From an uncultured Clostridia bacterium (GTDB lineage Bacteria; Bacillota; Clostridia; TANB77; CAG-508), in the NCBI GenBank assembly GCA_934154805.1, contig CAKPGM010000001.1:6177-70176 (forward strand): a DNA stretch of 64,000 nt. The letters run 5' to 3'. Below are positions 4,015-62,537 of this stretch, piece by piece; the stretch's first letter is position 1; each line of letters starts with the position of its first letter. Below the pieces are notes generated by a model, which did no database searches, was not told the DNA's origin, and worked only from the letters and a program-made list of their open reading frames with translations. The position numbers and the translations under genes are program-made.

Positions 4015-6708
4015 TTATTCTCCTTTTACAATTCTTATCTGATTCATAGCATTGTCTGCCGCTTTTTTTGCCTGTCTAGCCGACAATCCCTTTTTCTCAA
4101 ATTTTCTTGCTAATGCTTTTGTCGCATTATCTGTTTTGTTTGCTTCACGGAACGTTCCAGCATCATAATGTGTAGATAGATTTGCTATTTCTATTGCATA
4201 TTTTTGTGCAAATTCTTCTTGTCTGCTTAATTCTTGTTGCAATCTTTGTTGTTCTGCTTCATTATTTGCAGCTTGTGCTGACTGCAATTGCTCTCTAACA
4301 CTTGCTGTTCTATTCTCTTTGATGTCATATATTCTATCCATCTCTTTGATGTCTGTTACACCGGTTCTTCTATATTTAGCGTACTCTTGCATTCTCTTTT
4401 CAATTTCTCTATTACGCTCTGAACGTTTCATTTCAGGATTTTCTTTCATTATCTTATCTGCAACATGTTGTCTATTTCCTATATCATTCATAAATTCTGC
4501 ATCAGCTTGTCTATTTTGAGCTTCTTTTTTACCATACGTAATTTGATTATATGCATCGCTAAGTGAACTTGCTGTATTCTCAATTCCTCTTGCTGTTTTG
4601 TTTCCTATTGCCTTTCCTGCAATTCCTCCTAACATTGCGCCTTTCCACATATCGTTCATATTACCGCCGACAATTCCACCGGCTAAACCTATTGCTGATC
4701 CTCCTATTAGAGCAGATCCTCTTAATGCCACTCTACCAGCACCTAATGCTGCTCTCTTTAGTAAAGTTTTGCCTGTCTTTCCTACTGGTATATCGTATTT
4801 TTCTCTTAAGTATTTTGTAAAGTTGCTTTCAGTTTTTCCTGTATTTGGAACACTAGTTACATCTAAGTCATCTTGGTTTGTAATAGGTAATCCACTCTCT
4901 GAATCCTGCAAGCTTGGTCCAGAATTTGCTCCTAAATTTCCTAATTCTTCATCAGTATATTCTCTACCAAATCCTATGTATTCATCCTCTTCATTATTTG
5001 TATTATTAGTATTCTGATTATTAGTATCTTGATTTGCTCCCATAGTAGCTGTTGCAGCTGCCGCACCACTTCCTATTGCCAAGTTGCCATCTTCGGCAGC
5101 TAGTGCATCTAATCCGTCTCCTTCTACTATATTTGGATCTGTAACATTTTTGTCTTTTGTTCTAATTTTATTAGATCCGCCACTTTCTTTACTTTTCTCT
5201 TTACCTTTTCCTAATCTTTGTAGTGCTTGTGCAGCTAATGCTCCACCTGCGAATCCCCCCATTGCTGGAGCTGTTTCGCTTCTGATACCAAACATACTCT
5301 TAATCATTTTTTCTGCTGGTACAATGAATGCTAATACACACACAGCATATAATGGAGATTCTACAACTAAGTCGATTGCTGATGTTACAAGTATCGTGTA
5401 TAGGACCAAATGTATAATTGGTAACATTGCATTTACTAAATATTCTCTTAACCAATATTCAAAAGCTTGTGCCCTTGAATCTTTTACTTTATCTATAGGA
5501 TATGTAAGCGCTACAAGTGGTGCAATTATTGTTAAAAATGTTAATATTACTATCCTCTTCAAATATATAAAGAAGAAATATATTGTATAGAATGTTAATG
5601 CTAAATACATTATTGTATATGTTAATTTATTCCATCCATCCGGATTTTCTGATAATATTCTATTATATCCAATTAGGTTTGTTGGAAATATTCCAGGTAC
5701 ATCGCCAGTATATGCACCAGAATCCTGATCTTTGAGTTGTTCAGTTAGCTCTTTTACTCCTGCTCCCATACTTGGATTTGTAGCTACTGCATTATTATAT
5801 GCATCATTCCAACTGTATTTAACTGTATTTCCGTTTGTGTCTACTACATTGACCAAAATGGTATTAATTGTTTTTGAACTTGTTTTTGGATTATCTGTTA
5901 CAAATAGTTTTTGTATTTCTTTTACCATAGTCATCGAGAATACCATAATATAGTGTAAGAAAAATACTAGGCATAGAGCAATTACCCAATCAATAAACAT
6001 TTGCTTATATTTTGCCTTGTCTGACGCAACAGCAGAAGTTATCATTCTTATTGCGACATACACTAACACAGAAAGTAATCCAACAATTGCAATTAATCTA
6101 AGTCCTTGATACCAATTTGAAATTACTTTTTTTAGTTTTCCAGCCGTTGAATATTCTTCTCCTCCTATCATTGTGTCTTGATATTCCGAAGAAGTAGTAT
6201 CACCAAAAAAGTCTGCGTCTAGGAAAGCAACTCTTCCAGCAAATATTTCAATTGGAGTCACCTTAATATTTGGTGCAACTAAATCCGATTTCTTTTTTAA
6301 ATATCCCATACCTTCAGGAACTGCGTCAGTATTTCTTCCAACTATCATTACTTTCTTTTCTTTCATATTAGATGATGGATTATCAACATCAAATATTGCT
6401 CTAATGCTTGCTTCATCTGTTTTTCCATCACATTGGTCAAAAACTACATCTCTCAAAGCCTTGTATACTCCCGAGTCAGATTTATTTACGGCAGACCCTA
6501 ATAACGAATCACCAGTTCCTACTGTTTTTCCTATTAAATTATTTGCAACATCACCGAGTGCTCTTAATAAATCGCATATTGGTTCTATAAGTTCACCACC
6601 AAAATCTGCCTGACTATATGTTGGCATTACAAAGGTAAATGTTAGCATTACTATTAGTAGTGATATGATAATCTTTTGCTTTATGCTTTTAACTTTTTTG
6701 TCTTTCAT
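4015..6708 (-). CDS. VirB6/TrbL/TcpH-like polytopic T4SS membrane protein with a long C-terminal extension
   Basis: 897-aa ORF with a signal peptide or TM at the N-terminus and several internal TM helices (e.g. LRLIAIVGLLSVLVYVAIRMI, VIALCLVFFLHYIMVFSM, IMYLALTFYTIYFFFIYL, ILTFLTIIAPLVAL). It also has an N/T/Q low-complexity stretch (NQDTNNQNTNNTNNEEDE), a Gly-zipper segment (GSALIGGSAIGLAGGIVGG) and a charged coiled-coil tail. It lies directly downstream of the VirB4 gene. Confidence 0.55.
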   Translation of the reverse strand: MKDKKVKSIKQKIIISLLIVMLTFTFVMPTYSQADFGGELIEPICDLLRALGDVANNLIGKTVGTGDSLLGSAVNKSDSGVYKALRDVVFDQCDGKTDEASIRAIFDVDNPSSNMKEKKVMIVGRNTDAVPEGMGYLKKKSDLVAPNIKVTPIEIFAGRVAFLDADFFGDTTSSEYQDTMIGGEEYSTAGKLKKVISNWYQGLRLIAIVGLLSVLVYVAIRMITSAVASDKAKYKQMFIDWVIALCLVFFLHYIMVFSMTMVKEIQKLFVTDNPKTSSKTINTILVNVVDTNGNTVKYSWNDAYNNAVATNPSMGAGVKELTEQLKDQDSGAYTGDVPGIFPTNLIGYNRILSENPDGWNKLTYTIMYLALTFYTIYFFFIYLKRIVILTFLTIIAPLVALTYPIDKVKDSRAQAFEYWLREYLVNAMLPIIHLVLYTILVTSAIDLVVESPLYAVCVLAFIVPAEKMIKSMFGIRSETAPAMGGFAGGALAAQALQRLGKGKEKSKESGGSNKIRTKDKNVTDPNIVEGDGLDALAAEDGNLAIGSGAAAATATMGANQDTNNQNTNNTNNEEDEYIGFGREYTDEELGNLGANSGPSLQDSESGLPITNQDDLDVTSVPNTGKTESNFTKYLREKYDIPVGKTGKTLLKRAALGAGRVALRGSALIGGSAIGLAGGIVGGNMNDMWKGAMLGGIAGKAIGNKTARGIENTASSLSDAYNQITYGKKEAQNRQADAEFMNDIGNRQHVADKIMKENPEMKRSERNREIEKRMQEYAKYRRTGVTDIKEMDRIYDIKENRTASVREQLQSAQAANNEAEQQRLQQELSRQEEFAQKYAIEIANLSTHYDAGTFREANKTDNATKALARKFEKKGLSARQAKKAADNAMNQIRIVKGE

Positions 6709-42305: not shown

Positions 42306-42906
42306 TTATTTTTCTTCTTTTACGGATTCAATCTCTTCGTCTGTCGCTCCAGAGTATTTTTTTATTAACTCTATTTCCAAATTATCTTTCAACATTCTTT
42401 TAATAATTTCTGTTTTTGTTTCTTTTACTCCGTAATTCTTTTCCTATTTCTGTTCCTTCTCTAATTCCAGTATTGTATAGTGCTTTTTCATCCATTATGG
42501 CTTTTTGTCTTAGTTCTGCTAGTCTCTCCATTTTCTCATCTTCGCTCATTTCTCTTACTGTTATTACTGCTTTTTTTACATCTTCATTCTTTTCCATAAT
42601 TTCTTTAACCTCCTCAGAGTTCGGATCTTCTAAAAACATTACCCATTGGTTCTTCTTATTATTCTTATCATTTTGGTATGCTTCTCTTACTCTTTTTAAG
42701 TTAATTATACGTATTTCAAACACGTCTGTCAACACTTTCTCTGGCTTTTCTTTTTCTCTTACGTTCCATATTGTTTCCATTCTTTTTAACTCTTTCGTTA
42801 CATCTATTTCAAAATCTGTTATTGCTATTATTACTACTTTTCTTGCTTTATTATATGTATCTCCTCTCTGTATTTGCTTGGCATATATTCTTAAAATTCG
42901 ACATGT
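42306..42906 (-). pseudogene. decayed Rpn-family (YhgA-like, PD-(D/E)XK) recombination-promoting nuclease / putative transposase gene
   Basis: The frame of track ORF 42400-42780 stays open upstream without an ATG (…RILRIYAKQIQRGDTYNKARKVVIIAITDFEIDVTKELKR-METIW…) until a stop at 42907-42909, so the nuclease N-terminus is missing. After ...EIGKE, the +1 frame continues with family-typical sequence (KNYGVKETKTEIIKRMLKDNLEIELIKKYSGATDEEIESVKEEK) to a stop at 42306-42308. This implies a 1-nt indel in the A-run near 42445. Confidence 0.55.
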
Positions 42907-43029: not shown

Positions 43030-43383
43030 TTAATCTTCTTTCATCTTACTTAGTATTGTTGACATACTATTGCAAAACAAGATCATATCATCTATATTTT
43101 TATTGTCACATTTTCTCATTATATTTTCTAGTTCTTTATTGATTTCTTTTGACTTTAATTCTTTGTTAGTCATTTTATCAAAAAATATGATCCTATCTAA
43201 TGAGAGTTGCAATACCGTACAAATTTTTAAAACTGTTTCTACACTAGGTTTTGTTTTTCCTCTTTCTATATTGCTATAAAAGTTATTAGAAATATCTGCC
43301 TGCTCTGCAACCTCTGTTTGCTTCATATTTAGTTCTTCTCTCTTTTGTTTAAACATTTTTCTTAATTCTTCATAATAGTTCAT
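43030..43383 (-). CDS. XRE-family helix-turn-helix transcriptional regulator
   Basis: 117 aa. HTH_3 motif: LNMKQTEVAEQADISNNFYSNIERGKTKPSVETVLKICTVLQLSLD. Confidence 0.8.
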   Translation of the reverse strand: MNYYEELRKMFKQKREELNMKQTEVAEQADISNNFYSNIERGKTKPSVETVLKICTVLQLSLDRIIFFDKMTNKELKSKEINKELENIMRKCDNKNIDDMILFCNSMSTILSKMKED

Positions 43384-43526: not shown

Positions 43527-43790
43527 ATGAATATAGATACTTTAAATAGTTTTATAGAAAACAGAATTCAAGACAATTATTCTATCTTACTTGATAATTT
43601 AAAATACATATCTCTTAATGATGTGTACACAAATAAATACCAATCCTTTATATCTAAAATTTCAGATGATGATAAAACATTGTTCAATGAACTTATAGAT
43701 ATTAAGAGCAGTCTTTTTACAGAGGAAATTTATCTATCTTATATTGTGGGACTTCACGATGGATTCGAATTTAATAAAGGAATTAAATAA
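43527..43790 (+). CDS. small hypothetical protein (87 aa)
   Basis: The ATG at 43527 follows GGAGA. The track ORF begins earlier, at 43434. Its end, ...YLSYIVGLHDGFEFNKG, loosely resembles the end of ORF 63048-63338. Confidence 0.45.
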   Translation: MNIDTLNSFIENRIQDNYSILLDNLKYISLNDVYTNKYQSFISKISDDDKTLFNELIDIKSSLFTEEIYLSYIVGLHDGFEFNKGIK

Positions 43791-43808: not shown

Positions 43809-44210
43809 ATGAGCAAATTATATGATACATATAAGAATTTAAAGCTATGCGAAAACAATTATATTTATCTGTTCAAATCTGGTATTTTTTATATTTTACT
43901 AGCTGATGATGCTAAGCGTGTTTCTCTTTCTTTAGGACTAAAACTTACTAAGTTTAATGATGAGGTTCTAAAATGTGGCTTTCCTATTTCTGCAAAAGAT
44001 AAATATTTTCAGTTACTTAAAAATCATAATTTTGATTTTAAAATAATAGACAATAATACATCTTATAATATATGTGAATATACAGTAAAAAATGGATTTC
44101 AGGAAATGTTAGATACAATTTTAAAGGTGGATACTAATAATTTATCAATTAAAGAAGCTTATGAATTTATAGACAAAATAAAAAATATGGCTAACGCTTT
44201 ATCGCATTAG
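43809..44210 (+). CDS. small MutS-domain-I-like protein (MSL-like), copy B
   Basis: 133 aa. YDTYKNLKLCENNYIYLFKSGIFYILLADDAKRVSLSLGLKLTKFNDEVLKCGFPISAKDKYFQLLKNHNFDFKIID aligns by eye with the E. coli MutS N-terminus ([46 protein letters not shown]...[28 protein letters not shown]). Its 3' end overlaps the RT gene's 3' end by 4 nt, in convergent orientation. Confidence 0.6.
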   Translation: MSKLYDTYKNLKLCENNYIYLFKSGIFYILLADDAKRVSLSLGLKLTKFNDEVLKCGFPISAKDKYFQLLKNHNFDFKIIDNNTSYNICEYTVKNGFQEMLDTILKVDTNNLSIKEAYEFIDKIKNMANALSH

Positions 44211-45151
44211 CTCTTTTTCAATAGGTTTTTATAACAAGTTATGCTGTTAGTTAGATTAATTAAATCTATTTTTTTGTTTTCATATAGATATTTCTTGTAT
44301 TTTATTTTTCTTTTCATACTTCTATATTTTGCATATCCTCCCCTCTTATTGCGTCCTAAAAATATAAAATTATTCGTGTTTTTATATATTCTGCTTTTTC
44401 TATTTAGAACTAACTTTTCTTTATTTAAAAATATTTTAATCTTTTCAAAACACTCTTTTAGATATTCTTTTGAAGGATGAAACAACAAAAAGTCGTCCTG
44501 ATATCTTACATAATATTTTATTTTTAAATCTTCTTTTATATAATGATCTAAATCATTTAAGTAAAACACTGCTAAAACTTGACTAGTCATATTGCCTATT
44601 CCCAGTCCATTTTCTTCACTATCAATTATCTTAAACACAATATTGAGCGCATCTTTATCCTTTATTCTTTTGACTATTTTCTCTTTTAATCTCGTATGAT
44701 CTATACTCGCAAAGAATTTACTAATATCGCATTTTAATATATAATAGTCTTTGTACTTTATATTACACTTTCTAATAAAGTTTCTCTCAAGTCTCAATCC
44801 CTCTTTTGTTCCTCGATCTTTAATACTTGCTACATTCTCTGGTATTAAGCAAGGATTTAAAGTCGGATAAAGTATCTGTCTACTTACTAAATGATTTATA
44901 ATTTTATCTTGTAAATTTTGACTCACTATCCTTCGCTCTTTTGGTTCATATATTTTAAAAACTGTATATGGTCCAACTTCATAGTTTTTATTTATCATAA
45001 TATCGTATATTCTGCTTATATAAACACACTTATATTCTTTATATTTTCTTACTTTTCTTTTGTTTTTTGTATTTTTACATACTTCATCAAAAGCCTGCAT
45101 TATATTTTCCATCTTACAAACATATTGATATAAATTATTTTTTCTTTTCAT
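44207..45151 (-). CDS. DGR-type reverse transcriptase
   Basis: 314 aa: EPKERRIVS (motif 2), GLGIGNMTSQVLAVFYLN (the I/LGxxxSQ motif diagnostic of DGR RTs), and VRYQDDFLLF (the catalytic YxDD box). It has no maturase or endonuclease extension. It lies 208 nt downstream of the TR. Confidence 0.9.
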   Translation of the reverse strand: MKRKNNLYQYVCKMENIMQAFDEVCKNTKNKRKVRKYKEYKCVYISRIYDIMINKNYEVGPYTVFKIYEPKERRIVSQNLQDKIINHLVSRQILYPTLNPCLIPENVASIKDRGTKEGLRLERNFIRKCNIKYKDYYILKCDISKFFASIDHTRLKEKIVKRIKDKDALNIVFKIIDSEENGLGIGNMTSQVLAVFYLNDLDHYIKEDLKIKYYVRYQDDFLLFHPSKEYLKECFEKIKIFLNKEKLVLNRKSRIYKNTNNFIFLGRNKRGGYAKYRSMKRKIKYKKYLYENKKIDLINLTNSITCYKNLLKKS

Positions 45152-45358
45152 TAGTTTACTCCTTTATAATAATAAAAAGAAGTAGTTATAAAACTACTTC
45201 AAAAACAGTTCTAAAATATAATCCCTTTCGCAAATGCTACTAACAATCATATTTATCTATTTTTATTTATAACATATATATGTTAAAGGACTACGGTTTG
45301 TTTCTATATTATCTCTTATATGATATATTAGCATATAACCACAGTGTATAGAAGCTAT

Positions 45359-45502
45359 GGGGCGGACACCAAAGCCGTTAGCATTCCAGTTACCGTTCGA
45401 GTTGAACATATTGTTGCCAGCGTTGACATTGCCGTTATTAACATCACCAGGACCGAAGTTAGCATTGTCAGAGTTAGCATTAACAGCGGGCGAAGCTAGC
45501 CA
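45359..45502 (-). ncRNA. DGR template repeat (TR)
   Basis: 144 nt that align without gaps to 46556-46699. TR differs from VR at 23 positions, and 21 of those are adenines in the TR sense strand (T on the plus strand). It lies between avd and the RT. Confidence 0.9.
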
Positions 45503-45523
45503 CATCAACCAAGCCCTATAAAA

Positions 45524-45871
45524 CTAATTTATATTAATAGTTTTTTTCCATCCAGTTGCATATTTTATTATATCATCTAATTTTTGCCCAAATTTTACAT
45601 ATCTTTTGCTATTTATGATCTCTTTGTCATAGCATAGATTTAGTAAAAAATCTATGACTTTAACTTTTGCAATTATGTTTTCTATTAGATCTTCTCTTTT
45701 ATCTTGAGAAGTAAGATTCGCTTTATATGCAAGTTCTAACAACTCATAGCTTTCTTCTTTTAATTTGCTTTTTATTTCTATATCTTTTTTAGGAAAATTA
45801 TTTAGATGTACATCCATATAAACTATTAATTCTCTAATGTAATTTATTACTTTAAATTTTTCTTCTTTCAT
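45524..45871 (-). CDS. avd: DGR accessory variability determinant (Avd; four-helix-bundle, 23S-rRNA-IVS protein family)
   Basis: 115 aa, basic and helical (…INYIRELIVYMDVHLNNFPKKDIEIKSKL…AKVKVIDFLLNLCYDKEII…KFGQKLDDIIKYATGWKK). It lies immediately upstream of the TR and overlaps the preceding gene by 20 nt. Confidence 0.75.
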   Translation of the reverse strand: MKEEKFKVINYIRELIVYMDVHLNNFPKKDIEIKSKLKEESYELLELAYKANLTSQDKREDLIENIIAKVKVIDFLLNLCYDKEIINSKRYVKFGQKLDDIIKYATGWKKTININ

Positions 45872-46301
45872 TTATTAAACTCTCTATTTGGCTTATTAAT
45901 TCCTTATCTTTGTTATAAGTATTTAAATAATTTGTTATTTTCTCTATTCTTATTTTGATTGCATTTTCTGCCTTTCCCAACTCATAATATTTTTCATAAT
46001 TATTCAAATTCTTAAAGTTACTGTTTTCTCGTTCTTCATAGTTATTTCTTCTGTCTAGCACTATGTAATTTATTTTTTTACTTTCTAGTTGAGCTATTAC
46101 TTTATTATATGCCGATTTTGGAAAAGAACATGAATAGATATTGTTTTCTAAAATTTTTATTTTGTATTTTTCTAGATAACTAATTATAAAAGTATCTTTT
46201 CCATAGCAATAATAAAATGAACCTATTTCTATGAGTACTATATAATTTTTGCATATTTGTTTTACATTTTGTACCATATTTATTATTTTTTCTATCTTCA
46301 T
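45852..46301 (-). CDS. small MutS-domain-I-like protein (MSL-like), copy A
   Basis: 149 aa. KQICKNYIVLIEIGSFYYCYGKDTFIISYLEKYKIKILENNIYSCSFPKSAYNKVIAQLESKKINYIVLD follows the same pattern as copy B and MutS domain I. It sits between the DGR target gene and avd. Confidence 0.55.
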   Translation of the reverse strand: MKIEKIINMVQNVKQICKNYIVLIEIGSFYYCYGKDTFIISYLEKYKIKILENNIYSCSFPKSAYNKVIAQLESKKINYIVLDRRNNYEERENSNFKNLNNYEKYYELGKAENAIKIRIEKITNYLNTYNKDKELISQIESLINERRKI

Positions 46302-46393
46302 TTGTTCCTCTTTTAAAGCGAGCCCCCAGAAGTCACGAGGCCTTCTTGGGGCTTTTGCTGTTTATGTTTTGCATTCAAACAAGTTATTACTTA

Positions 46394-47746
46394 TTAGCTG
46401 GCTCCTCCACCTGAATTCCCGTAATTGCCTGCCTCTCCGTTTGTTGCATTTCCATTTGCTACAGCATCATTATTTGAGTATGCTGACCAATCGTCTTCTT
46501 TTCCATCTATTACGTGCAAATCTTCAATAGTGATATTAGAATTTAGATAAACTAGGGGGCGGACACCAAAGCCGTCAGCAAACCAGCCACCGCCCGAGAT
46601 GAACATATCGACGCCAGCGAAGACACCGCCGTTACCCACATCACCAGGACCGAAGATAGCATCGTCAGAGTAAGCATAAACACCGGGCGAAGCTAGCCAG
46701 TAAGACTTTGCATAATTTGCATCACTTGTTGTTCCACTAAACAATATTGTTTTTAATGCATCATCAATTGTTAGGTTACCCCATTGATAATAATATGCTG
46801 TTGCTGGTTCTGTTTTTGTACCTTCTGTTGCATTTGTTTTATTATTTATATAACTCTCTGGGGTATAATCACTTGATTTATATGTATATTGATTTCCTAA
46901 TACTCCCCATTTGTCTATATTAGTGTTTGAGTCTGTATTTGCATATACCTTTTGGTTAGTATAATCTACTGTCACTCCTATTAATCTATTGATTTCTTCT
47001 GCTGTCAAACTTTGTGCTGTTCCTAAACTTGTGCTATATATCCCACTTATATTTTTTAATATTGTTTTGCAATTTACATATGAATATGCTCCTTTTAAAA
47101 CCAGATATGGTGACTTTTCCCAATCTTCTGCTGTAGTATCTGTTTTCATTTCCTTTTTTATTGGACTTTGTGAGATCAACATTAGTTTTTCACCTGTTTT
47201 ATCTAGTCCTAACACTTGCCAATATGTGTTTTTTGTTGCTGTATATTTTTGGTCTGCCCATCCATTTTCATTTGTTACTGTTGTATAAGTCTTACTTTCA
47301 TCCACATAATCATTATAATTTAAATAATCCCCGACTTTTATATTTCCATCTTTAAACGCTTGTACTAAAGTTTTAGCATCTGATGGGAATCTTACTGTTT
47401 CTTTCCCTATTACTAGCTCTTTTGTGTCTTTTATGGTATTAATATCATCTTCACTTATTAGCCCTCTATCTTTTAATCTTGTTAAAAAGTCATCCATACT
47501 TTCGTGTGACCCTGCACCATTATCTGATGCAAATTTTTCAGCTTCCCATAGGCTTATTTCATCTCTTATTGAGCCAGCTCTACTTGCGTTTCTTGCATCT
47601 TTTGATTTCTGGATTATACCATTTTGATCAACTAACAAATTGATACTTACACCCGCCAGTATCAAAAGTACTACAATTGTTACTACTAGTGCTATTAATG
47701 TTATAGCATTTTGGTTCTTTAGCTTAATGTTTTTACTTTGTTTCAT
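46394..47746 (-). CDS. DGR variable (target) protein: pilin-like N-terminal hydrophobic segment and C-terminal variable ligand-binding (C-type-lectin-fold-like) region
   Basis: I chose the start at 47746 (MKQSKNIKLKNQNAITLIALVVTIVVLLILAGVSI…) after GGAGG. The track ORF starts 15 codons earlier. The C-terminal sequence YWLASPGVYAYSDDAIFGPGDVGNGGVFAGVDMFISGGGWFADGFGVRP is encoded by the VR. Confidence 0.85.
   Translation of the reverse strand: MKQSKNIKLKNQNAITLIALVVTIVVLLILAGVSINLLVDQNGIIQKSKDARNASRAGSIRDEISLWEAEKFASDNGAGSHESMDDFLTRLKDRGLISEDDINTIKDTKELVIGKETVRFPSDAKTLVQAFKDGNIKVGDYLNYNDYVDESKTYTTVTNENGWADQKYTATKNTYWQVLGLDKTGEKLMLISQSPIKKEMKTDTTAEDWEKSPYLVLKGAYSYVNCKTILKNISGIYSTSLGTAQSLTAEEINRLIGVTVDYTNQKVYANTDSNTNIDKWGVLGNQYTYKSSDYTPESYINNKTNATEGTKTEPATAYYYQWGNLTIDDALKTILFSGTTSDANYAKSYWLASPGVYAYSDDAIFGPGDVGNGGVFAGVDMFISGGGWFADGFGVRPLVYLNSNITIEDLHVIDGKEDDWSAYSNNDAVANGNATNGEAGNYGNSGGGAS
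46556..46699 (-). repeat. DGR variable repeat (VR) inside the target gene
   Basis: It is the counterpart of TR 45359-45502 at a constant offset of 1197 nt. 14 of the 15 Asn (AAY) codons in the TR are replaced in the VR by Y, D, I, G, F or V codons. Confidence 0.9.
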
Positions 47747-47844
47747 TTGTTTACCTCCATATATTCTTAAAAATTTGGTTATTATATTCATATCTTATAT
47801 CAACAATTTCCTTTTGTAAATACTTTTCGAGATTTTTTCTTATT

Positions 47845-47911: not shown

Positions 47912-48256
47912 GTGATTATTTTGGATTCAGATAAGATAAAAATAGGCAAAGCTTTAAAGAAATATAGAATGATAAAAGGTTATACTCAAGAGGATGTAGC
48001 TGATATTACAGGTCTTGCTCCTAGATATATTAGTCAAATTGAAAGAGGTTTCTCTTCTGGTAGTATTTCTACGTTGATCAAATTATGTGATGCTTATGGG
48101 ATTACTCCTAATCACGTCTTATACACTATGACTAACAATCCCGATGATTGTTCTAGTTACAATTCTATTTCTGGTTATAATGAGCTAAATAAAAAGAATC
48201 GTTTTGTCGTAGATTCTTTAATAGATATATTAATAAAGCAACAAGGCAAAAAATAA
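47912..48256 (+). CDS. XRE-family helix-turn-helix transcriptional regulator
   Basis: 114 aa. HTH_3 motif: GYTQEDVADITGLAPRYISQIERGFSSGSISTLIKLCDAYGITPNHVL. The start is non-ATG: either the GTG at 47912 or the TTG at 47921, after AGGTGA. Confidence 0.75.
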   Translation: MIILDSDKIKIGKALKKYRMIKGYTQEDVADITGLAPRYISQIERGFSSGSISTLIKLCDAYGITPNHVLYTMTNNPDDCSSYNSISGYNELNKKNRFVVDSLIDILIKQQGKK

Positions 48257-48837: not shown

Positions 48838-51153
48838 TTATTTTATTATTTCTAAGCCAGCAAATTTTGCCATTAACCTCTTATGTCCAACCTTGTCAAA
48901 TTCTAGGTCTACCTTGATATCGTCTCCTTCTTGTTCTAGTTTTGTTATTGTACCTTCTCCAAATTTCTTATGATATACTCTTTGACCAACTTGGTATTTG
49001 CTTAGGTCTACATTACTGTTTTGGTTATTTTGTTTTATTGAATTTAAGAAACTCTCTGCTGTTCTAAATTGGAACCCTGCAGTCTTGTTTTCTTGTAATA
49101 TTTTCGCAGTGTTCTTCTTGTCCTCTTCATCCATTTTGTATGTTTTTACAGTTTGTCCTTTTCCATAGCTCCATCTATAACCAGAATCTTTGAATTCATC
49201 TTCCTTAGAGTTACTGTTTACCATCTCAGCATAGCCTTCTAACAACTCTTCTGGAATCTCTTGAACAAATCTTGATACTTGATTATAGCTTGTTGCTCCA
49301 AATATTGTTCTGTGTTTAGCACAAGTTAGATACAAATATTGTTTTGCTCTAGTTATTCCTACATAAAATAGTCTTCTTTCTTCTTCAAGTGCTTGTGGTT
49401 CTCCTATTGATTTATATCCTGGGAATATTCCTTCTTCCATTCCCACTAGGAATACAACTGGGAATTCAAGTCCTTTTGCACTATGTAAAGTCATCAATGT
49501 TACAGAGTCTTCTTGATCTTCCATTCCATCTATGTCGCTTGAAAGTGTTATGTTTTCTAAGAATTCAGCCAAAGTATTGTCCGCTTCTTGTTCTTCAAAT
49601 TCTATTGCAACTGTTAAAAACTCCTCTAGGTTTTCTATCCTTGTTTCGGCTTCCACACTATTTTCAAGTTCTAGTGCCTTTGTATATCCTGTTTTGTTTA
49701 AGGTTTCTTTTATTAAATCAGAGATTTTAATTTTATCTTTCTGCTCTCTTAGATATTCAATTTGCTCGATAAACTCCCTTGAATATGCATACACTCTGCT
49801 CAATTCATATTTTTCTGCATCTTTTATTATTTCGTACATTGGTATACCAGAGTTCTCTGATATTTCTTGAACCCTGTCTAAACTCGTTTTACCTATTCCT
49901 CTTTTTGGTTCATTAATTATTCTTTTTAAAGATAAATTATCTGCTGTATTATGAATTAATCTTAAATATGCAATTATGTCTTTTATTTCTTTTCTTTCGT
50001 AGAATTTTAAGCCTCCAATTACTTTATATGGTAAACCTTCTCTCATTAATATATCTTCTATTGCTCTTGATTGAGCATTCATTCTATATAATACAACAAA
50101 GTCCGAATTTTTATAGTATTCCTCTCTTTTTAGATGTTCTATTTGCTCTACTATGTATCTTGCTTCATCATATTCATCCTCTCCATTGTAAATACAAGGG
50201 ATTTTTCCTTCTTCGTTTTGTGTCCACAATTTTTTGTCATATTTATTTTCGTTGTGCTTAATTACTGCGTTTGCAGCTTTTAAGATATTGCCTGTACATC
50301 TATAATTCTGCTCTAATTTTATTATCTTAGTTCCTGGAAAGTCTCTTTCAAAGTTTAGTATATTGCTAATGTCAGCTCCTCTAAAACTATAAATTCCTTG
50401 GTCATTATCACCTACGGCTGTTATATTTCCATATTTTGATGCCAACATTGATACCAACATAAATTGTGCTTTGTTTGTATCTTGGTACTCATCTACTAAT
50501 ACATATTGGAATTTTTCTGTGTAATAATCTAGTACATCTGGATTTTCTGTTAGTATTTTTATTGTAAGATTTATTATATCATCAAAGTCTAAAGCATTGT
50601 TTTCTTTTAATTTTTGTTGATATAATGCATATAATTCTGCAATTTTTTCTCTTCTAAAATCTCCAGCATATTTCACTCCATATGCCTTTGGTTCTAGCAT
50701 TTCATTTTTACCATTACTTATTTCTGTAAGTACTCCTCTGTCTGTGAATAGCTTATCATCTACTTTTAGTGCTTTTATACATTCTTTTATTAATGTTTTT
50801 TGGTCTGATGTATCAAATATTACAAAGTCTGTTTTATATCCCACTCTATCTATGTATCTTCTTAATATTTTTACGCAAATTGAGTGGAAAGTTCCCATCC
50901 ATAGGTCTTTTGCTGCATCTCCAATTAGTTTTTCTATTCTTTCTTTCATCTCGTTTGCAGCTTTATTTGTAAATGTTATTGCAAGTATATTCCAAGGTTT
51001 TACCCCATTTGCTATCTCATACGCAATTTTATGCGTTAATACTTTTGTTTTTCCGCTTCCAGCACCAGCGATTACAAGGCAAGGTCCCTCTGTTGCTAGT
51101 ACCGCTTCTTTTTGTTTATCATTTAATCCTTCAATTATTTCTTCTTTGTTCAT
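48838..51153 (-). CDS. pcrA: ATP-dependent DNA helicase PcrA (UvrD/Rep superfamily 1)
   Basis: 771 aa: AGAGSGKTKVLTHKIAY (motif I), VDEYQDTN (motif II), QNYRC and TLHSAKGLEF. Confidence 0.9.
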   Translation of the reverse strand: MNKEEIIEGLNDKQKEAVLATEGPCLVIAGAGSGKTKVLTHKIAYEIANGVKPWNILAITFTNKAANEMKERIEKLIGDAAKDLWMGTFHSICVKILRRYIDRVGYKTDFVIFDTSDQKTLIKECIKALKVDDKLFTDRGVLTEISNGKNEMLEPKAYGVKYAGDFRREKIAELYALYQQKLKENNALDFDDIINLTIKILTENPDVLDYYTEKFQYVLVDEYQDTNKAQFMLVSMLASKYGNITAVGDNDQGIYSFRGADISNILNFERDFPGTKIIKLEQNYRCTGNILKAANAVIKHNENKYDKKLWTQNEEGKIPCIYNGEDEYDEARYIVEQIEHLKREEYYKNSDFVVLYRMNAQSRAIEDILMREGLPYKVIGGLKFYERKEIKDIIAYLRLIHNTADNLSLKRIINEPKRGIGKTSLDRVQEISENSGIPMYEIIKDAEKYELSRVYAYSREFIEQIEYLREQKDKIKISDLIKETLNKTGYTKALELENSVEAETRIENLEEFLTVAIEFEEQEADNTLAEFLENITLSSDIDGMEDQEDSVTLMTLHSAKGLEFPVVFLVGMEEGIFPGYKSIGEPQALEEERRLFYVGITRAKQYLYLTCAKHRTIFGATSYNQVSRFVQEIPEELLEGYAEMVNSNSKEDEFKDSGYRWSYGKGQTVKTYKMDEEDKKNTAKILQENKTAGFQFRTAESFLNSIKQNNQNSNVDLSKYQVGQRVYHKKFGEGTITKLEQEGDDIKVDLEFDKVGHKRLMAKFAGLEIIK

Positions 51154-60738: not shown

Positions 60739-61413
60739 TTAATTACTTTTACCATCTCTTTTATTTATACCCTCTATTTTATTATCTGGTAAAAAATTAT
60801 ATATATCATCTATTTCCTTTGGCTCGATTATCATTTTCTCAACTATTATATTCATTAACTTAAATAATGCTATTGCTATATCTTTATTATCATCAATATT
60901 TATCTGTCCCGGATGTACAGCTTCATTCCCAATAATTCTTATTGCATCCATAGACTTTTGCAAAGAAGATGGTAATCCATTCTTTACTAAATCTTTTATT
61001 GTTTCATCTATTTTAGTTTTTTCATCTTTTCCAGCTATTTGATTGCATAATTTTTGCAATGCTAATCTTAATATTGCACATGAACCTTTAGGAGATAAAT
61101 TAAAAATGTTTCTTGCCTCTTCATATAATTCCTTGATATTATTAGGCATTTCATCTATCGGTAATTCTATATTTGACTTTAATGGCCATATTAATTGTTC
61201 TTCGAGCCAAAAACTAATAAATCCACATTGTTGACATCTACAAGCAGAAATATATCTGACATCATCTCCATTTTTATATGAATGCATTGTGCCTGTAGTA
61301 TAATTAATCATTGTTTTATCCCAATCATGATTTGAATATGCACCACACTTAAAACAAGTGAATCCTTTTTTCTTATACTCTGCTTCTACAAAATTTCTTT
61401 CCAAAAATAACAC
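60739..61413 (-). CDS. zinc-ribbon and DUF4145 domain protein
   Basis: 224 aa. N-terminal CxxC…CxxC (CFKCGAY…CRCQQCGF). The C-terminal segment SCAILRLALQKLCNQIAGK…AIRIIGNEAVHPGQI is typical of DUF4145. Confidence 0.65.
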   Translation of the reverse strand: MLFLERNFVEAEYKKKGFTCFKCGAYSNHDWDKTMINYTTGTMHSYKNGDDVRYISACRCQQCGFISFWLEEQLIWPLKSNIELPIDEMPNNIKELYEEARNIFNLSPKGSCAILRLALQKLCNQIAGKDEKTKIDETIKDLVKNGLPSSLQKSMDAIRIIGNEAVHPGQINIDDNKDIAIALFKLMNIIVEKMIIEPKEIDDIYNFLPDNKIEGINKRDGKSN

Positions 61414-61454
61414 ATCCTTTAATTTTTCTATATTTTACTTACTATAAACTCTAT

Positions 61455-62537
61455 TTAATTTACCCATCTATATCTTTGCTTTAGTTCTCCCATCATATTC
61501 CATCCTAATTTTCCATCGTGTTGTAATCTTCCAACAACAATACCTGGGTGTATATCATTCTCTTTTGCAAACTTTATAATTCTCTCTTTTGTATAATTAT
61601 TTTCTTCAACAAAATCTTTATATATATTGTCATCCAATATCATATTTCTAGAATAATTGTCAGCTTCTAATTCCATTTCTTTATCTTCTGTATCTTCAGT
61701 ATCAATAAAATTTTTAGATTTCTTTGCGTGTAACATTAAATGTCCTACTTCATGGAAAAATGCAAACCAAAAATGATCATTTGAACAATACCTTAAACTT
61801 ATCTGAATTAATGGATTTTCTCCAATCCACGTAAATGCTCCTCTAACTTTACTATTTGGAACTGCTTCTTCCATTACAAAATAGACTCCATTTTCATTGC
61901 AAATTTCTTTTATTTTCTTAAAAATATCTACATCATCTTTTTTTATTAAACTTTTAATTTCCAATATTGCCTTCTCGAAATTTTCTTTATTATATTCTTC
62001 CACATTTTGTTTACGTGCTTCTAATTCGCACTTTCTGATCCAAACTAATAATGGCTCTATTTGATATCCATCTTCTTTAAAAGAATATTCATAAACTCTA
62101 CTTGAATAAACTGACAATATATTCTCCACATTTTTTACACCAAAAAACTTAAGTAACTCATATACCTTTTCACTTTTTGATGATCTTTCTGGTAAATCTA
62201 ACCATTTCTTTTTTCTCATAAAATCTATTTGGTACTTTTGACATATTTCATCTAAATTTTCTTTTTTTAATTTTTCTAATTCTTTTTCTTTTTCTAAAAA
62301 ACCTCTATATTTTATCTCATACCCCATTAAAACTTCATACTTTATATTTATTACTTTTTCTAAAGCCATAGCCATATCCATTGTTAATAGGACTTTATTA
62401 TTCAATAACTCACTAATATGTTTTTCACTAACATTTAATCTTATTGCTAATTCTTTTTGACTTATACTATATATTTCTAATCTTTCTTTTATTAATTCTG
62501 AAGTTGGTACAAAATAATTTGTTACTAAACTTCCCAT
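61455..62537 (-). CDS. higA: HigA-type HTH antitoxin fused to an ImmA/IrrE-family zinc metallopeptidase domain
   Basis: 360 aa. The N-terminal HTH is SISQKELAIRLNVSEKHISELLNNKVLLTMDMAMALEKV. The C-terminal HEVGHLMLH is an HExxH motif. It lies directly downstream of the higB-like gene. Confidence 0.7.
   Translation of the reverse strand: MGSLVTNYFVPTSELIKERLEIYSISQKELAIRLNVSEKHISELLNNKVLLTMDMAMALEKVINIKYEVLMGYEIKYRGFLEKEKELEKLKKENLDEICQKYQIDFMRKKKWLDLPERSSKSEKVYELLKFFGVKNVENILSVYSSRVYEYSFKEDGYQIEPLLVWIRKCELEARKQNVEEYNKENFEKAILEIKSLIKKDDVDIFKKIKEICNENGVYFVMEEAVPNSKVRGAFTWIGENPLIQISLRYCSNDHFWFAFFHEVGHLMLHAKKSKNFIDTEDTEDKEMELEADNYSRNMILDDNIYKDFVEENNYTKERIIKFAKENDIHPGIVVGRLQHDGKLGWNMMGELKQRYRWVN

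What the first reader, a model, noticed from the sequence alone, without database searches (positions are those of the whole stretch)
44207..47746. Complete diversity-generating retroelement: target - MSL - avd - TR - RT
All canonical DGR parts lie in one minus-strand cassette:
- a target gene (46394-47746) carrying a C-terminal VR
- an Avd-like four-helix-bundle gene (45524-45871)
- a 144-nt TR (45359-45502)
- an RT (44207-45151) with the DGR-diagnostic GIGNMTSQ motif and a YQDD catalytic box

DGRs are easily missed by standard annotation. Here the TR is even called as an 81-aa ORF in the track. The cassette implies targeted protein hypervariation in this spore-former.
Basis: partly seen in the sequence, partly recalled or inferred. 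Interest (0 to 1): 0.85.

Follow-up and report, generated by a model that had tools for sequence, protein, structure and literature searches.

The report
Active diversity-generating retroelement in gut Clostridia
This is a genuine, complete diversity-generating retroelement that rewrites the tip of one pilin-like surface protein in an uncultured gut Clostridia bacterium; it belongs to a known kind of system, but public metagenomes show it has been diversifying in nature.

Summary
TR (45359-45502) and VR (46556-46699) are a 144-nt repeat pair. They differ at 23 positions, and 21 of these are TR adenines (Fisher p = 2e-14).

Public assemblies carry the identical RT. In them the TR is constant, apart from one polymorphic site, while seven VR alleles differ almost only at TR-adenine positions. 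VR diversity is 40 times that of the rest of the cassette.

- **RT:** it matches the Bordetella phage DGR RT far better than any group II intron or retron RT.
- **Avd and MSL:** both are present, matching Architecture D of Wu et al. 2018.

New details found here:
- A conserved, covarying RNA follows the TR. It has a 10-bp duplex bracketing the TR, a stem-loop just 3' of the TR, and a probable priming duplex. These resemble the Bordetella DGR RNA elements.
- A second MutS-domain-I gene abuts the RT.
- The target has a type IV pilin-like N-terminus. Its variable domain has no Pfam, PDB or Foldseek match, although the structure model is confident.

Verdict: a new member of a known kind. Interest is moderate.

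The parts
47912..48256 (+). HTH_3 (XRE-family) regulator, divergently transcribed from the target gene; a probable regulator of the cassette (inferred).
   Evidence: Pfam HTH_3, E = 1.2e-13. The same gene lies next to the target in L020, L021, L032, L049, L050 and L061.
46394..47746 (-). Target gene, 450 aa. It has a pilin-like N-terminal hydrophobic helix (KNQNA|ITLIALVVTIVVLLILAGV), an extracellular region with no family assignment, and the VR near the C-terminus.
   Evidence: N_methyl is weak in the window protein (15.4 bits against a cut-off of 21.2) but is found in 23 of 60 family members. AlphaFold2 model: pLDDT 91.6. No PDB or BFVD fold match. No Pfam hit.
46556..46699 (-). Variable region (VR), codons 350-397 of the target. 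The last 12 nt (46567-46556, GGTGTCCGCCCC) form a G+C-rich, IMH-like element shared with the TR.
   Evidence: 21 of 23 mismatches to the TR lie at TR adenines. Seven alleles occur among strains with the identical RT protein. Diversity is 40 times that of the rest of the cassette.
46321..46353 (-). G+C-rich hairpin (AGCCCCAAGAAG / CTTCTGGGGGCT) between the target stop codon and MSL1. It may be a terminator or attenuator.
   Evidence: Sequence read. The terminator scan reports a hairpin here on the opposite strand. Its function is inferred.
45852..46301 (-). MSL1, a stand-alone MutS domain I protein (149 aa). Its 3' end overlaps the start of avd.
   Evidence: Pfam MutS_I, 30.4 bits against a cut-off of 20.6. 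It lies directly upstream of avd in most of the 80 related loci. The G-x-F-[YF] and C-G-F-P motifs are conserved, but the MutS Glu of Phe-x-Glu is mostly lost.
45524..45871 (-). avd, the DGR accessory variability determinant (115 aa, pI 8.8).
   Evidence: Pfam bAvd, 41.1 bits against a cut-off of 40. PHROG 3206 'Avd protein of DGR', E = 2.2e-19. NCBIfam DivGenRetAVD scores 43.9 bits, below its cut-off of 80.
45507..45516 (-). Upstream arm (GGGCTTGGTT) of a long-range RNA duplex that brackets the TR. It starts 8 nt after the avd stop codon.
   Evidence: It pairs with 45288-45298. The pair is 99.4% base-paired across 17 loci, with changes on both sides that keep pairing at five of ten positions; 0 of 2000 shuffles reach this value.
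45359..45502 (-). Template repeat (TR). It has 34 adenines and 15 AAY codons. No codon can mutate to a stop. About 10^19 protein variants are possible.
   Evidence: The TR is constant across strains except for position 45485, which is T here and in L012 and A elsewhere.
45167..45358 (-). Structured spacer RNA 3' of the TR. Its elements are: P1 45353-45347/45308-45302 (TTCTATA/TATAGAA, the candidate template:primer duplex); P2 hairpin 45338-45329/45325-45316; the downstream arm of the bracketing duplex, 45298-45288; P3 hairpin 45285-45280/45275-45270, followed by an A-rich tract; P4/P5 45263-45236/45231-45202; and a terminator-like hairpin 45200-45179 with a T-run.
   Evidence: RNAalifold predicts 44 pairs, 21 with compensatory changes. 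96.4% of cells are paired, against 84.4% in shuffles and 39-57% in slid controls. A covariance model finds exactly one copy, just 3' of the TR, in 37 related loci. No Rfam family matches. Only 3 substitutions in about 190 nt separate it from the lineage whose RT is 92% identical.
44207..45151 (-). DGR reverse transcriptase (314 aa, pI 9.8), with GIGNMTSQ at 184-191 and YQDD at 217-220.
   Evidence: 50 of 80 loci with related RTs carry an adenine-biased TR/VR pair.
43809..44210 (+). MSL2, a second stand-alone MutS domain I protein (133 aa). It is convergent with the RT and overlaps its 3' end by 4 nt.
   Evidence: Pfam MutS_I, 35.5 bits. It aligns to Taq MutS residues 19-101. It abuts the RT in about 15 related species, either convergent or co-directional upstream.
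43527..43790 (+). DUF6809-like small acidic protein (87 aa), upstream of MSL2 on the same strand. Whether it belongs to the cassette is uncertain.
   Evidence: Pfam DUF6809, 24.2 bits, below the cut-off of 27. It is found next to MSL2 only in the window species, group B, L020 and L021.
43030..43383 (-). Second HTH_3 regulator, at the other edge of the island.
   Evidence: Pfam HTH_3, E = 1e-16. It holds the same position in L020, L021 and in all loci of groups A and B.

Best explanation
This is a chromosomal diversity-generating retroelement (DGR) of the MSL-containing type. It diversifies 19 codons near the C-terminus of one pilin-like surface protein. The likely mechanism follows; each step is marked as shown or inferred.

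1. **Transcript (inferred).** An RNA running from just after the avd stop codon, through the TR, to the hairpin and T-run at 45200-45179 folds into a conserved structure.
2. **RNA structure (shown by covariation).** A 10-bp duplex brackets the TR. A stem-loop sits about 20 nt 3' of the TR. An invariant 7-bp helix, TTCTATA/TATAGAA, lies immediately 3' of the last base shared by TR and VR.
3. **Priming (inferred by analogy).** As in the Bordetella phage element, the RT with Avd binds this RNA. It primes cDNA synthesis from an adenosine of the invariant GAAAC that ends the 7-bp helix.
4. **Copying (pattern shown, enzymology inferred).** The RT copies the TR faithfully, except that it inserts any base opposite adenine.
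5. **Homing (orientation shown, mechanism inferred).** The cDNA is complementary to the sense strand of the VR. That strand is the lagging-strand template here, because the target is co-directional with replication. The cDNA replaces the VR between the shared 5' homology and the G+C-rich GGTGTCCGCCCC element.
6. **MSL role (speculative).** The two MutS-domain-I proteins probably act on the mismatched cDNA:VR heteroduplex, for example by shielding it from mismatch repair.
For: **Repeat pair and coding logic**
- Mismatches between TR and VR are adenine-specific: 21 of 23, p = 2e-14.
- The TR has 15 AAY codons. No stop codon is reachable, and about 10^19 protein variants are possible.

**Natural variation**
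- Seven VR alleles occur among strains with the identical RT protein, and four more in the lineage whose RT is 92% identical. Substitutions fall at TR adenines.
- VR diversity is 0.168 per site, against 0.0042 for the rest of the cassette.

**Proteins**
- The RT is closest to bRT (8ub7, E = 1.8e-28). bRT F66, R74 and I76, the IGxxxSQ motif and the catalytic Asp residues are matched in the alignment.
- Avd passes the Pfam cut-off and matches the PHROG 'Avd protein of DGR'.
- 50 of 80 related RT loci have adenine-biased TR/VR pairs, and MSL1-avd lies beside the RT, or beside the TR on the other strand, in most of them.

**RNA**
- The spacer RNA shows covariation.
- One model hit per locus always follows the TR, even where the TR lies downstream of the RT.
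- These elements match those described for the Bordetella DGR RNA and predicted in 207 other DGRs (bioRxiv 10.1101/2023.10.23.563531).
- In every locus, exact TR/VR homology ends at ...TAG. The first constant difference lies immediately 5' of the 7-bp helix.
- An AbiEii toxin-antitoxin pair sits exactly between the terminator-like hairpin and the RT ribosome-binding site in the sister lineage, and its VRs still vary.

**Orientation**
- Plus-strand GC skew is -0.22 across the whole window, so the target is co-directional with replication. That is the orientation reported to favour DGR editing (PMC12875486).
Against: - No direct evidence of activity exists for this particular strain. Its cassette is identical over 3585 nt to that of one public contig (L012).
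- The differences between strains show past diversification, not its rate.
- Two of the 23 TR/VR mismatches are not at adenines.
- Some natural alleles carry a 2-nt insertion in the VR that truncates the target (L011, L017). This could be an RT error or an assembly artefact.
- The NCBIfam Avd model scores below its curated cut-off (43.9 against 80).
- The variable domain could not be assigned to the C-type lectin or Ig folds typical of DGR targets.
- The priming site, the ends of the transcript and any role for the MSL proteins are inferred only.
Confidence: 0.93

Rival explanations
1. The element is a decayed DGR relic. The parts are recognisable but no longer active, and the VR alleles are old polymorphisms kept by recombination or selection.
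For: The window's cassette is identical over 3585 nt to that of one other public contig. Frameshifted VR alleles exist (L011, L017, L002). The hairpin and T-run between the TR and the RT could limit RT expression.
Against: All ORFs are intact, and the RT protein is identical in 23 or more contigs. Strains that differ by only 2-3 substitutions outside the VR over 3.4 kb carry 23-28 differences inside it, all of the A-to-N type. Old polymorphism would require comparable divergence in the flanks. The spacer RNA is under strong purifying selection.
Confidence: 0.05
2. The repeat pair is an ordinary duplication or gene-conversion tract, and the neighbouring RT belongs to a different retroelement: a group II intron, a retron or a defence RT.
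For: The NCBIfam scan lists group II intron, Drt3a and retron models as weak hits, all far below their cut-offs. PADLOC lists generic RT and DRT models.
Against: The adenine bias has p = 2e-14. bRT scores 103 bits, against 37 bits or less for every other solved RT. No group II intron or retron RNA is found by Rfam at E <= 1. Avd is present. Related RTs are linked to adenine-biased repeats in 50 of 80 loci.
Confidence: 0.01
3. The DGR belongs to a prophage or other mobile element and diversifies a phage receptor-binding protein, not a cellular surface protein.
For: Many DGRs are phage-borne. HTH_3 regulators and a truncated PD-(D/E)XK Rpn-family transposase-like gene flank the island. Phage DGR RTs are distant relatives, all below 60% identity.
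Against: No phage structural, integrase or lysis genes adjoin the island. It sits between PcrA-CotF and M23-MecA-RadC-MreB at the same chromosomal site in lineages whose RTs are 77-100% identical. The target has a pilin-like membrane anchor, not a tail-fibre architecture, and has no PHROG match.
Confidence: 0.02

Closest known systems
Bordetella phage BPP-1 DGR (bRT, Avd, TR-Sp RNA, Mtd)
   Same: - The RT is of the same clade, with the IGxxxSQ motif, and Avd is present.
- The TR lies between avd and the RT.
- TR-to-VR differences are adenine-specific, the codons are AAY, and a G+C-rich element ends the VR.
- The RNA has a duplex pairing sequences upstream and downstream of the TR, a stem-loop just 3' of the TR, and a short helix next to the 3' end of the copied region.
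   Different: - It is chromosomal, not phage-borne.
- The catalytic box is YQDD (bRT: YMDD in the alignment).
- It has two extra MutS-domain-I genes.
- The target is a pilin-like membrane-anchored protein, and its variable domain is not recognisably the Mtd C-type lectin fold.
- The spacer is longer (about 190 nt), with extra helices P3-P5.
MSL-containing DGRs (Architecture D of Wu et al. 2018, PMC5758913), including the Legionella pneumophila DGR
   Same: A small MutS-like accessory gene occurs together with avd, and there is no HRDC gene. The gene order is target, MSL, avd, TR, RT.
   Different: - Here a second MSL paralogue abuts the RT, in either orientation in related species, sometimes with a DUF6809 gene.
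- The Legionella target LdtA is a lipoprotein of the DUF1566/CLec2 type, whereas this target has a pilin-like N-terminus and no DUF1566 match.
- Wu et al. listed only 16 MSL-containing DGRs. Here the association holds in most of 80 species-level loci from gut Clostridia and Bacilli.
Gut Bacteroides DGRs that diversify Type V pilus adhesins (bioRxiv 10.1101/2024.11.15.621889)
   Same: Both are gut-commensal chromosomal DGRs that diversify a pilus-related surface protein. Both show natural VR variation between strains.
   Different: The phylum differs. The pilus system differs too: here only a type IV pilin-like N-terminal motif, with Ala in place of Glu5, and no assembly genes were found in the window ORFs scanned. 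The RT clade and the accessory genes also differ.

Membership tests
Diversity-generating retroelement | Reverse transcriptase of the DGR clade (motif [LIV]GxxxSQ, Y-x-DD box; closer to bRT than to group II intron or retron RTs). | tested here: met
   GIGNMTSQ and YQDD are present. bRT 8ub7 scores 103 bits, E = 1.8e-28, against 37 bits or less for all other solved RTs. PHROG 1423, E = 1e-81. No formal phylogeny was built.
Diversity-generating retroelement | A TR/VR near-repeat pair whose differences lie almost only at TR adenines. | tested here: met
   21 of 23 mismatches lie at the 34 adenines and 2 at the 110 other positions; p = 2.1e-14.
Diversity-generating retroelement | The VR lies at the 3' end of a protein-coding target gene. 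TR adenines sit in the first two codon positions (AAY), so stop codons are avoided. | tested here: met
   The VR covers codons 350-397 of 450. 33 of the 35 adenines of the commonest TR allele are in codon positions 1-2; the window's TR has 34. There are 15 AAY codons, and no codon can become a stop.
Diversity-generating retroelement | The VR varies between individuals at TR-adenine positions, while the TR stays constant. | tested here: met
   Seven VR alleles occur among contigs with the identical RT protein. 33 of 37 variable columns are TR adenines, and the TR has one polymorphic site. VR diversity is 40 times that of the flanks.
Diversity-generating retroelement | The Avd accessory protein. 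| tested here: met
   Pfam bAvd, 41.1 bits against a cut-off of 40. PHROG 'Avd protein of DGR', E = 2.2e-19. NCBIfam scores below its cut-off.
Diversity-generating retroelement | A G+C-rich IMH at the 3' end of the VR, with a related but different IMH* after the TR. | tested here: met
   Both copies share GGTGTCCGCCCC. After it, the flanks match at 9 of 15 positions (CTAGTTTATCTAAAT against ATAGCTTCTATACAC). Its function could not be tested.
Diversity-generating retroelement | DGR RNA elements around the TR: an upstream/downstream duplex, a stem-loop just 3' of the TR, and a template:primer helix. | tested here: met
   Covariation supports them. A covariance model finds one copy per locus, directly 3' of the TR. 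The identification with the Bordetella elements is by position and shape only.
Diversity-generating retroelement | Variable residues displayed on a C-type lectin or Ig-like fold. | tested here: inconclusive
   The AlphaFold2 model is confident (pLDDT 91.6). The best Foldseek E-value is 0.67 against the PDB and 0.069 against BFVD. There is no Pfam hit at E <= 10, and the PDB profile search found nothing for this domain. Only the whole chain could be searched, because the model coordinates could not be cropped.
Diversity-generating retroelement | RT-dependent, adenine-mutagenic cDNA synthesis and retrohoming. | not testable with these tools
   This needs experiment or read-level data.
MSL-type DGR (Architecture D, Wu et al. 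2018) | A small MutS-like (MutS domain I) accessory gene together with avd, and no HRDC gene. | tested here: met
   MSL1 matches MutS_I at 30.4 bits against a cut-off of 20.6, and MSL2 at 35.5 bits. MSL1-avd adjacency holds across the RT clade. No HRDC hit was found among the scanned ORFs.
Type IV pilin / pseudopilin | A class III signal peptide: a basic leader, Gly at -1, a hydrophobic N-terminal helix, and Glu at +5. | tested here: not met
   The window has ...KNQNA|ITLIALVV.... Position -1 is Ala here but Gly in at least 90% of the family. Position +5 is Ala throughout the close family (A1) and in at least 90% of the wider one (A4). N_methyl scores 15.4 bits against a cut-off of 21.2 in the window protein and matches 23 of 60 family members at E <= 0.01. 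PDB pilin N-termini match only at E = 0.08-1.2. It resembles a pilin N-terminus but cannot be filed as one.
Group II intron | Intron RNA domains and a maturase (X) or endonuclease domain in the RT. | tested here: not met
   No Rfam match at E <= 1 in 42.5-48.8 kb except a chance CRISPR-DR hit. The TIGR04416 model scores 77 bits against a cut-off of 300. The RT is only 314 aa.

The most novel reading that the evidence does not exclude
Two readings go beyond 'another DGR', and the evidence excludes neither.

(a) The variable residues are displayed on a scaffold that is neither the C-type lectin nor the Ig fold known for DGR targets. That scaffold would define a very large, unannotated family of pilin-like surface proteins in gut Firmicutes: 14,227 clusters at 50% identity, with no Pfam domain.

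(b) The two stand-alone MutS-domain-I proteins are dedicated heteroduplex-handling factors. They keep the mismatch-wedging Phe but have lost the Glu. They would protect or bias the resolution of the heavily mismatched cDNA:VR intermediate, and so explain how this DGR clade evades host mismatch repair.
Probability: 0.25. Interest if true: 0.7.

Novelty: new member of a known kind. Interest (0 to 1): 0.42.

Why it matters
DGRs are the only known natural system of targeted protein hypermutation in prokaryotes, and the human gut holds the highest known density of them. This element is a clean natural example from an uncultured Clostridia lineage.

- **Complete parts list.** Public metagenomes already show the diversification, so nothing needs to be assumed about whether the element has worked.
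- **A testable RNA model.** The covarying RNA gives a prediction of the priming site in a DGR clade far from the Bordetella phage prototype.
- **A system for the MSL question.** The MSL genes have had no assigned function since 2018. Here there are two paralogues and a conserved gene order to work with.
- **An annotation gap.** The target family is very large and has no annotation.

None of this overturns current understanding. It extends it.

Tried and rejected
- **First structure prediction.** An alignment of 27 close homologues (74-93% identical) gave pLDDT 42.6 and was unusable. A second run with 60 diverse representatives gave pLDDT 91.6.
- **Sequence and profile searches of the PDB with the target.** They returned only sub-significant matches to pilin N-termini.
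- **Foldseek with the good model.** It gave no significant hit against the PDB or BFVD. I could not crop the model to the variable domain, so a weak C-type lectin resemblance may have been missed.
- **Pfam, NCBIfam, PHROGs and PADLOC.** None gave a hit for the target's extracellular region.
- **Rfam.** Nothing relevant. A CRISPR-DR26 hit at 47588-47612 scores 28.3 bits against a gathering score of 39 and lies inside the target ORF, so I treat it as chance.
- **Hairpin directly 3' of the VR.** I looked for one like the Bordetella cruciform and found none within the coding region by reading the sequence. One repeat call failed on a strand argument.
- **MAFFT on the long-range duplex.** It mis-aligned a 0/1-nt bulge, so I counted the pairs with my own script instead of the pair-counting tool.
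- **Supplementary tables of Wu et al. 2018.** They are not held, so I could not check the VR class of known MSL-type DGRs.
- **Type IV pilus genes.** None were found among the ten ORFs scanned in 51-62.5 kb. The rest of the window was not scanned.

Full report
**1. The observation**

Between 43.5 and 48.5 kb the only long direct repeat is 45347-45502 with 46544-46699. On the minus strand the well-matched core is 144 nt: TR 45359-45502 and VR 46556-46699.

- The two copies differ at 23 positions.
- 21 of these fall on the 34 TR adenines (A to G, T or C).
- Only 2 fall on the 110 other bases (TR C45486/VR G46683; TR T45440/VR G46637).
- Fisher's exact test gives p = 2.1e-14.
- No other VR-like copy exists anywhere in the 64-kb window.

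The VR is in frame at codons 350-397 of a 450-aa ORF (46394-47746). A GGAGG lies 8-9 nt before the ATG at 47746, and public gene calls use that start.

In the same frame the TR reads WLASPAVNANSDNANFGPGDVNNGNVNAGNNMFNSNGNWNANGFGVRP.
- The window's TR has 34 adenines. Of the 35 adenines in the commonest TR allele, 33 are in codon positions 1 and 2.
- There are 15 AAY codons.
- No codon can mutate to a stop.
- About 10^19 protein variants are possible.

The 81-aa ORF at 45263-45508 is this TR reading frame run on into the spacer.

**2. The proteins**

- **RT (44207-45151, 314 aa).** It matches Pfam RVT_1 and carries GIGNMTSQ (184-191) and YQDD (217-220).
- **RT against solved structures.** The best match is chain 8ub7_A, the 328-aa Bordetella phage DGR RT, at 103 bits and E = 1.8e-28. 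bRT F66, R74 and I76, the IGxxxSQ motif and the catalytic aspartates are matched in the alignment.
- **Other solved RTs.** The next best scores 37 bits. Group II intron RTs score about 28-32 bits, chains labelled retron-type RT 29-32 bits, and Drt3a 20.6 bits.
- **RT against other libraries.** PHROG 1423 matches at E = 1e-81. Phage relatives are all below 60% identity and include crAss-like and Bordetella DGR phages.
- **Avd (45524-45871).** It passes the Pfam bAvd cut-off (41.1 against 40) and matches PHROG 3206 'Avd protein of DGR' at E = 2.2e-19. It falls short of the NCBIfam cut-off.
- **MSL1 (45852-46301).** It is a stand-alone MutS domain I protein, the 'MSL' accessory gene that defines Architecture D of Wu et al. 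2018 (PMC5758913).

**3. Natural variation**

The exact RT protein is encoded on at least 23 public contigs, mostly human gut metagenomes including Hadza samples, plus the assembly GCA_964311525.1. Ten of these were fetched (L010-L019).

- Across them the TR is constant, except for position 45485 (T in the window and L012, A elsewhere).
- Eight of the ten VRs align without an indel. Together with the window's they form seven alleles. Of 37 variable columns, 33 are TR adenines.
- Over the 3585 nt from the target start to the RT stop, strains differ from the window at 25-31 positions, and 23-28 of these lie in the 144-nt VR.
- L012 is identical to the window over these 3585 nt.
- L015 is an exception: the N-terminal half of its target gene is divergent.
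- Mean pairwise diversity is 0.168 per site in the VR and 0.0042 elsewhere, a 40-fold difference.
- A sister lineage with an RT 92% identical (L001-L009) has its own TR and four further VR alleles. All of their differences from that TR are at adenines.
- Two alleles (L011/L017, and L002) carry an indel in the VR that truncates the target.

**4. The clade**

A scan of one genome per species found 327 relatives of the RT. The best 80 loci were kept, with 37-96% identity. All come from uncultured gut Clostridia, Bacilli and related bins.

- 50 of the 80 have an adenine-biased TR/VR pair within the fetched DNA.
- MSL1-avd lies directly upstream of the RT, or with the TR and target on the opposite strand, in most of them.
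- The island occupies the same chromosomal site in the window species and in lineages whose RTs are 96%, 92% and 77% identical. That site lies between PcrA-CotF on one side and M23 peptidase-MecA-RadC-MreB on the other.
- No phage genes adjoin it.

**5. The RNA**

The 192 nt between the TR and the RT ribosome-binding site are far better conserved than their surroundings. Only 3 substitutions separate the window from the lineage whose RT is 92% identical, although the TR itself differs at about 15% of positions there. Nucleotide identity remains 75-88% in species whose RTs are only 63-77% identical.

RNAalifold on 17 loci predicts 44 pairs, 21 with compensatory changes. Counting those pairs gives 96.4% of cells paired. 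Column shuffles give 84.4% (0 of 500 reach the observed value), and versions with the partners slid by 1-3 columns give 39-57%.

Elements in window coordinates, minus strand:
- **P1:** 45353-45347 with 45308-45302 (TTCTATA/TATAGAA). It is almost invariant and is followed by an invariant AAC.
- **P2:** hairpin 45338-45329 with 45325-45316, covarying.
- **P3:** hairpin 45285-45280 with 45275-45270, covarying, followed by the A-rich tract TAAATAAAAATAGAT.
- **P4/P5:** 45263-45236 with 45231-45202.
- **Terminator-like hairpin:** 45200-45179, with a T-run.

In addition, GGGCTTGGTT (45516-45507, starting 8 nt after the avd stop codon) pairs with AACCG(T)AGTCC (45298-45288).
- This duplex is 99.4% paired in 17 loci.
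- Five of its ten positions show changes on both sides that keep the pair.
- 0 of 2000 shuffles reach the observed value (my own count, because MAFFT mis-set a one-base bulge).

A covariance model of P1-P3 finds exactly one hit in the window (45255-45358) and one in each of 37 related loci, 25 of which were not used to build it. The hit always lies directly 3' of the TR, including loci where the TR lies downstream of the RT (L030, L055). Rfam has no matching family.

These features correspond to what Handa et al. describe for the Bordetella DGR RNA and predict for 207 other DGRs (bioRxiv 10.1101/2023.10.23.563531):
- a stem-loop of about 9 bp just downstream of the TR;
- a duplex between sequences upstream and downstream of the TR;
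- a short template:primer helix at the 3' end of the copied region.

Across the 13 loci compared, exact TR/VR identity stops at ...TAG in all but three (L028, L036, L061). The next base, C (A in three loci) in the TR and T in the VR, lies immediately 5' of P1. The adenine four bases upstream (45358) is already mutated in the VR. I therefore infer that cDNA synthesis starts within 45357-45354, primed from an adenosine of the invariant GAAAC at the 3' end of P1. This is an inference by analogy, not a demonstration.

In the sister lineage an AbiEii toxin gene and its 180-aa partner are inserted exactly between the terminator-like hairpin and the RT ribosome-binding site, yet the VRs still vary. 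This natural insertion marks the 3' limit of the functional RNA. It also shows that the RT does not need to be adjacent to the TR.

**6. Orientation**

The plus strand has a GC skew of -0.17 to -0.30 in every 8-kb block, and most long ORFs are on the minus strand. The minus strand is therefore the leading strand, and the target gene is co-directional with replication. In that orientation the cDNA is complementary to the lagging-strand template. A 2026 study of the reconstituted Bordetella element found this orientation to be edited 8- to 25-fold more efficiently (PMC12875486).

**7. Extra parts**

- **MSL2.** A second MutS-domain-I protein (43809-44210, plus strand) overlaps the 3' end of the RT by 4 nt. 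In about 15 related species a homologue abuts the RT, either convergent or co-directional just upstream.
- **Gene order.** The order MSL2, RT, TR, avd, MSL1, target is kept; only the orientation of the RT flips.
- **MSL motifs.** Both MSL families keep G-x-F-[YF] and C-G-F-P, the counterparts of the MutS GDFYE and AG(I/V)P motifs. The Glu of the MutS Phe-x-Glu mismatch-recognition motif is usually replaced.
- **What is known about MSL.** Wu et al. listed MSL in 16 DGRs and assigned it no function. MutS itself was reported as not required for the Bordetella element.
- **Proposed role.** A role in binding or protecting the mismatched heteroduplex is my speculation.
- **Other flanking genes.** A DUF6809-like ORF (43527-43790) precedes MSL2 only in the closest relatives. 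HTH_3 regulators flank the island at 43030-43383 and 47912-48256, and the latter accompanies the target in several species.

**8. The target**

The family is very large. 6248 proteins in the 90%-identity collection scored E <= 0.001, with only the top 8000 candidates scored. 14,227 representatives at 50% identity scored E <= 0.001.

**N-terminus**
- The N-terminal consensus is K-G|ITLIALVITIIVLLILAGV.
- Gly at -1 is at least 90% conserved in the family, but the window has Ala.
- Position +5 is Ala throughout the close family (A1) and in at least 90% of the wider one (A4), not the Glu of type IV pilins.
- Pfam N_methyl matches 23 of 60 members but is below threshold in the window protein.
- PDB pilins match only the N-terminus, at E = 0.08-1.2.

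**Extracellular region**
- The remaining roughly 320 residues have no Pfam, NCBIfam, PHROG or PDB sequence match, even at E <= 10.
- With 60 diverse homologues AlphaFold2 gives a confident model (pLDDT 91.6, pTM 0.82). The VR maps onto a set of beta-strands at 349-401.
- Foldseek finds nothing significant in the PDB (best E = 0.67) or in BFVD (best E = 0.069).
- I could not crop the model, so a remote C-type lectin relationship is not excluded. The fold criterion is inconclusive.
- One survey mentions 'G-type pilin' domains among rare VR-bearing domains (PMC11661182).

**9. Verdict**

This is a complete DGR of the MSL-containing type and has evidently been active in nature. It is a new member of a known kind.

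The points beyond routine are:
- the covariation-supported RNA architecture, with a predicted priming site;
- the second MSL paralogue;
- the very large, unannotated pilin-like target family, whose variable scaffold could not be assigned to a known fold.

Noticed in passing
window 43809-44210 (+) and 43527-43790 (+); L020-L061: A second MutS-domain-I paralogue (MSL2) abuts the RT, preceded in the closest relatives by a DUF6809-like ORF. In related species MSL2 is either convergent with the RT or co-directional just upstream of it. The gene order MSL2, RT, TR, avd, MSL1, target is kept.
   Followed up: partly
L001-L009 (for example L001:4576-5939), between the counterparts of window 45167 and 45151: In the sister lineage (RT 92% identical) an AbiEii toxin gene and a 180-aa partner are inserted exactly between the hairpin and T-run that end the spacer RNA and the RT ribosome-binding site. 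The VRs of these loci still differ from one another at TR adenines.
   Followed up: partly
L011 and L017 (VR near locus position 4510); L002 (2926-3198): Some natural VR alleles carry an indel that truncates or splits the target gene; L011 and L017 have a 2-nt insertion at the TTAATAA site. It could be an RT slippage product giving a null allele, or a metagenome assembly artefact.
   Followed up: partly
window 45485-45486 and 46682-46683: The only polymorphic TR site (45485: T here and in L012, A in the other strains) sits next to one of the two non-adenine TR/VR mismatches (TR C45486, VR G46683). The VR carries the same T as this strain's TR. The order of events is unexplained.
   Followed up: no
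window 42400-42780 (-): A PD-(D/E)XK Rpn-family transposase-like gene is truncated to 126 aa here and in L012. It is 264-276 aa in other strains of the same species (L010, L011, L013-L016).
   Followed up: no
L015:983-2335 against window 46991-47766: One strain with the identical RT protein has 56 substitutions in the target gene outside the VR; those printed lie in its N-terminal half. Other strains have at most 3 outside the VR. This looks like recombination or mosaicism in the non-variable part of the target.
   Followed up: no
L001:1-563 against window 48838-51153: The neighbouring PcrA/UvrD helicase carries an intein in the sister lineage (1133 aa, Pfam Intein_splicing). The window species has none (771 aa).
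   Followed up: no
window 60739-62537 (-): A DUF4145 protein lies next to a protein with Peptidase_M78 (ImmA/IrrE-like) and HTH_3 domains. This may be a small defence or mobile-element remnant. It is unrelated to the DGR.
   Followed up: no
window 47588-47612 (+): A weak Rfam CRISPR-DR26 hit (28.3 bits against a gathering score of 39, E = 0.1) lies inside the target ORF. There is no repeat array, so it is judged to be chance.
   Followed up: yes
L020 (contig CAVFFR010000005.1): The species-representative genome closest to the window (RT 96% identical, same synteny) is labelled 'Bacteroidaceae bacterium'. Its gene content (Coat_F, MecA) matches the window's and points to Clostridia, as does the window's low G+C (29.6%). 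The bin is probably mislabelled.
   Followed up: no
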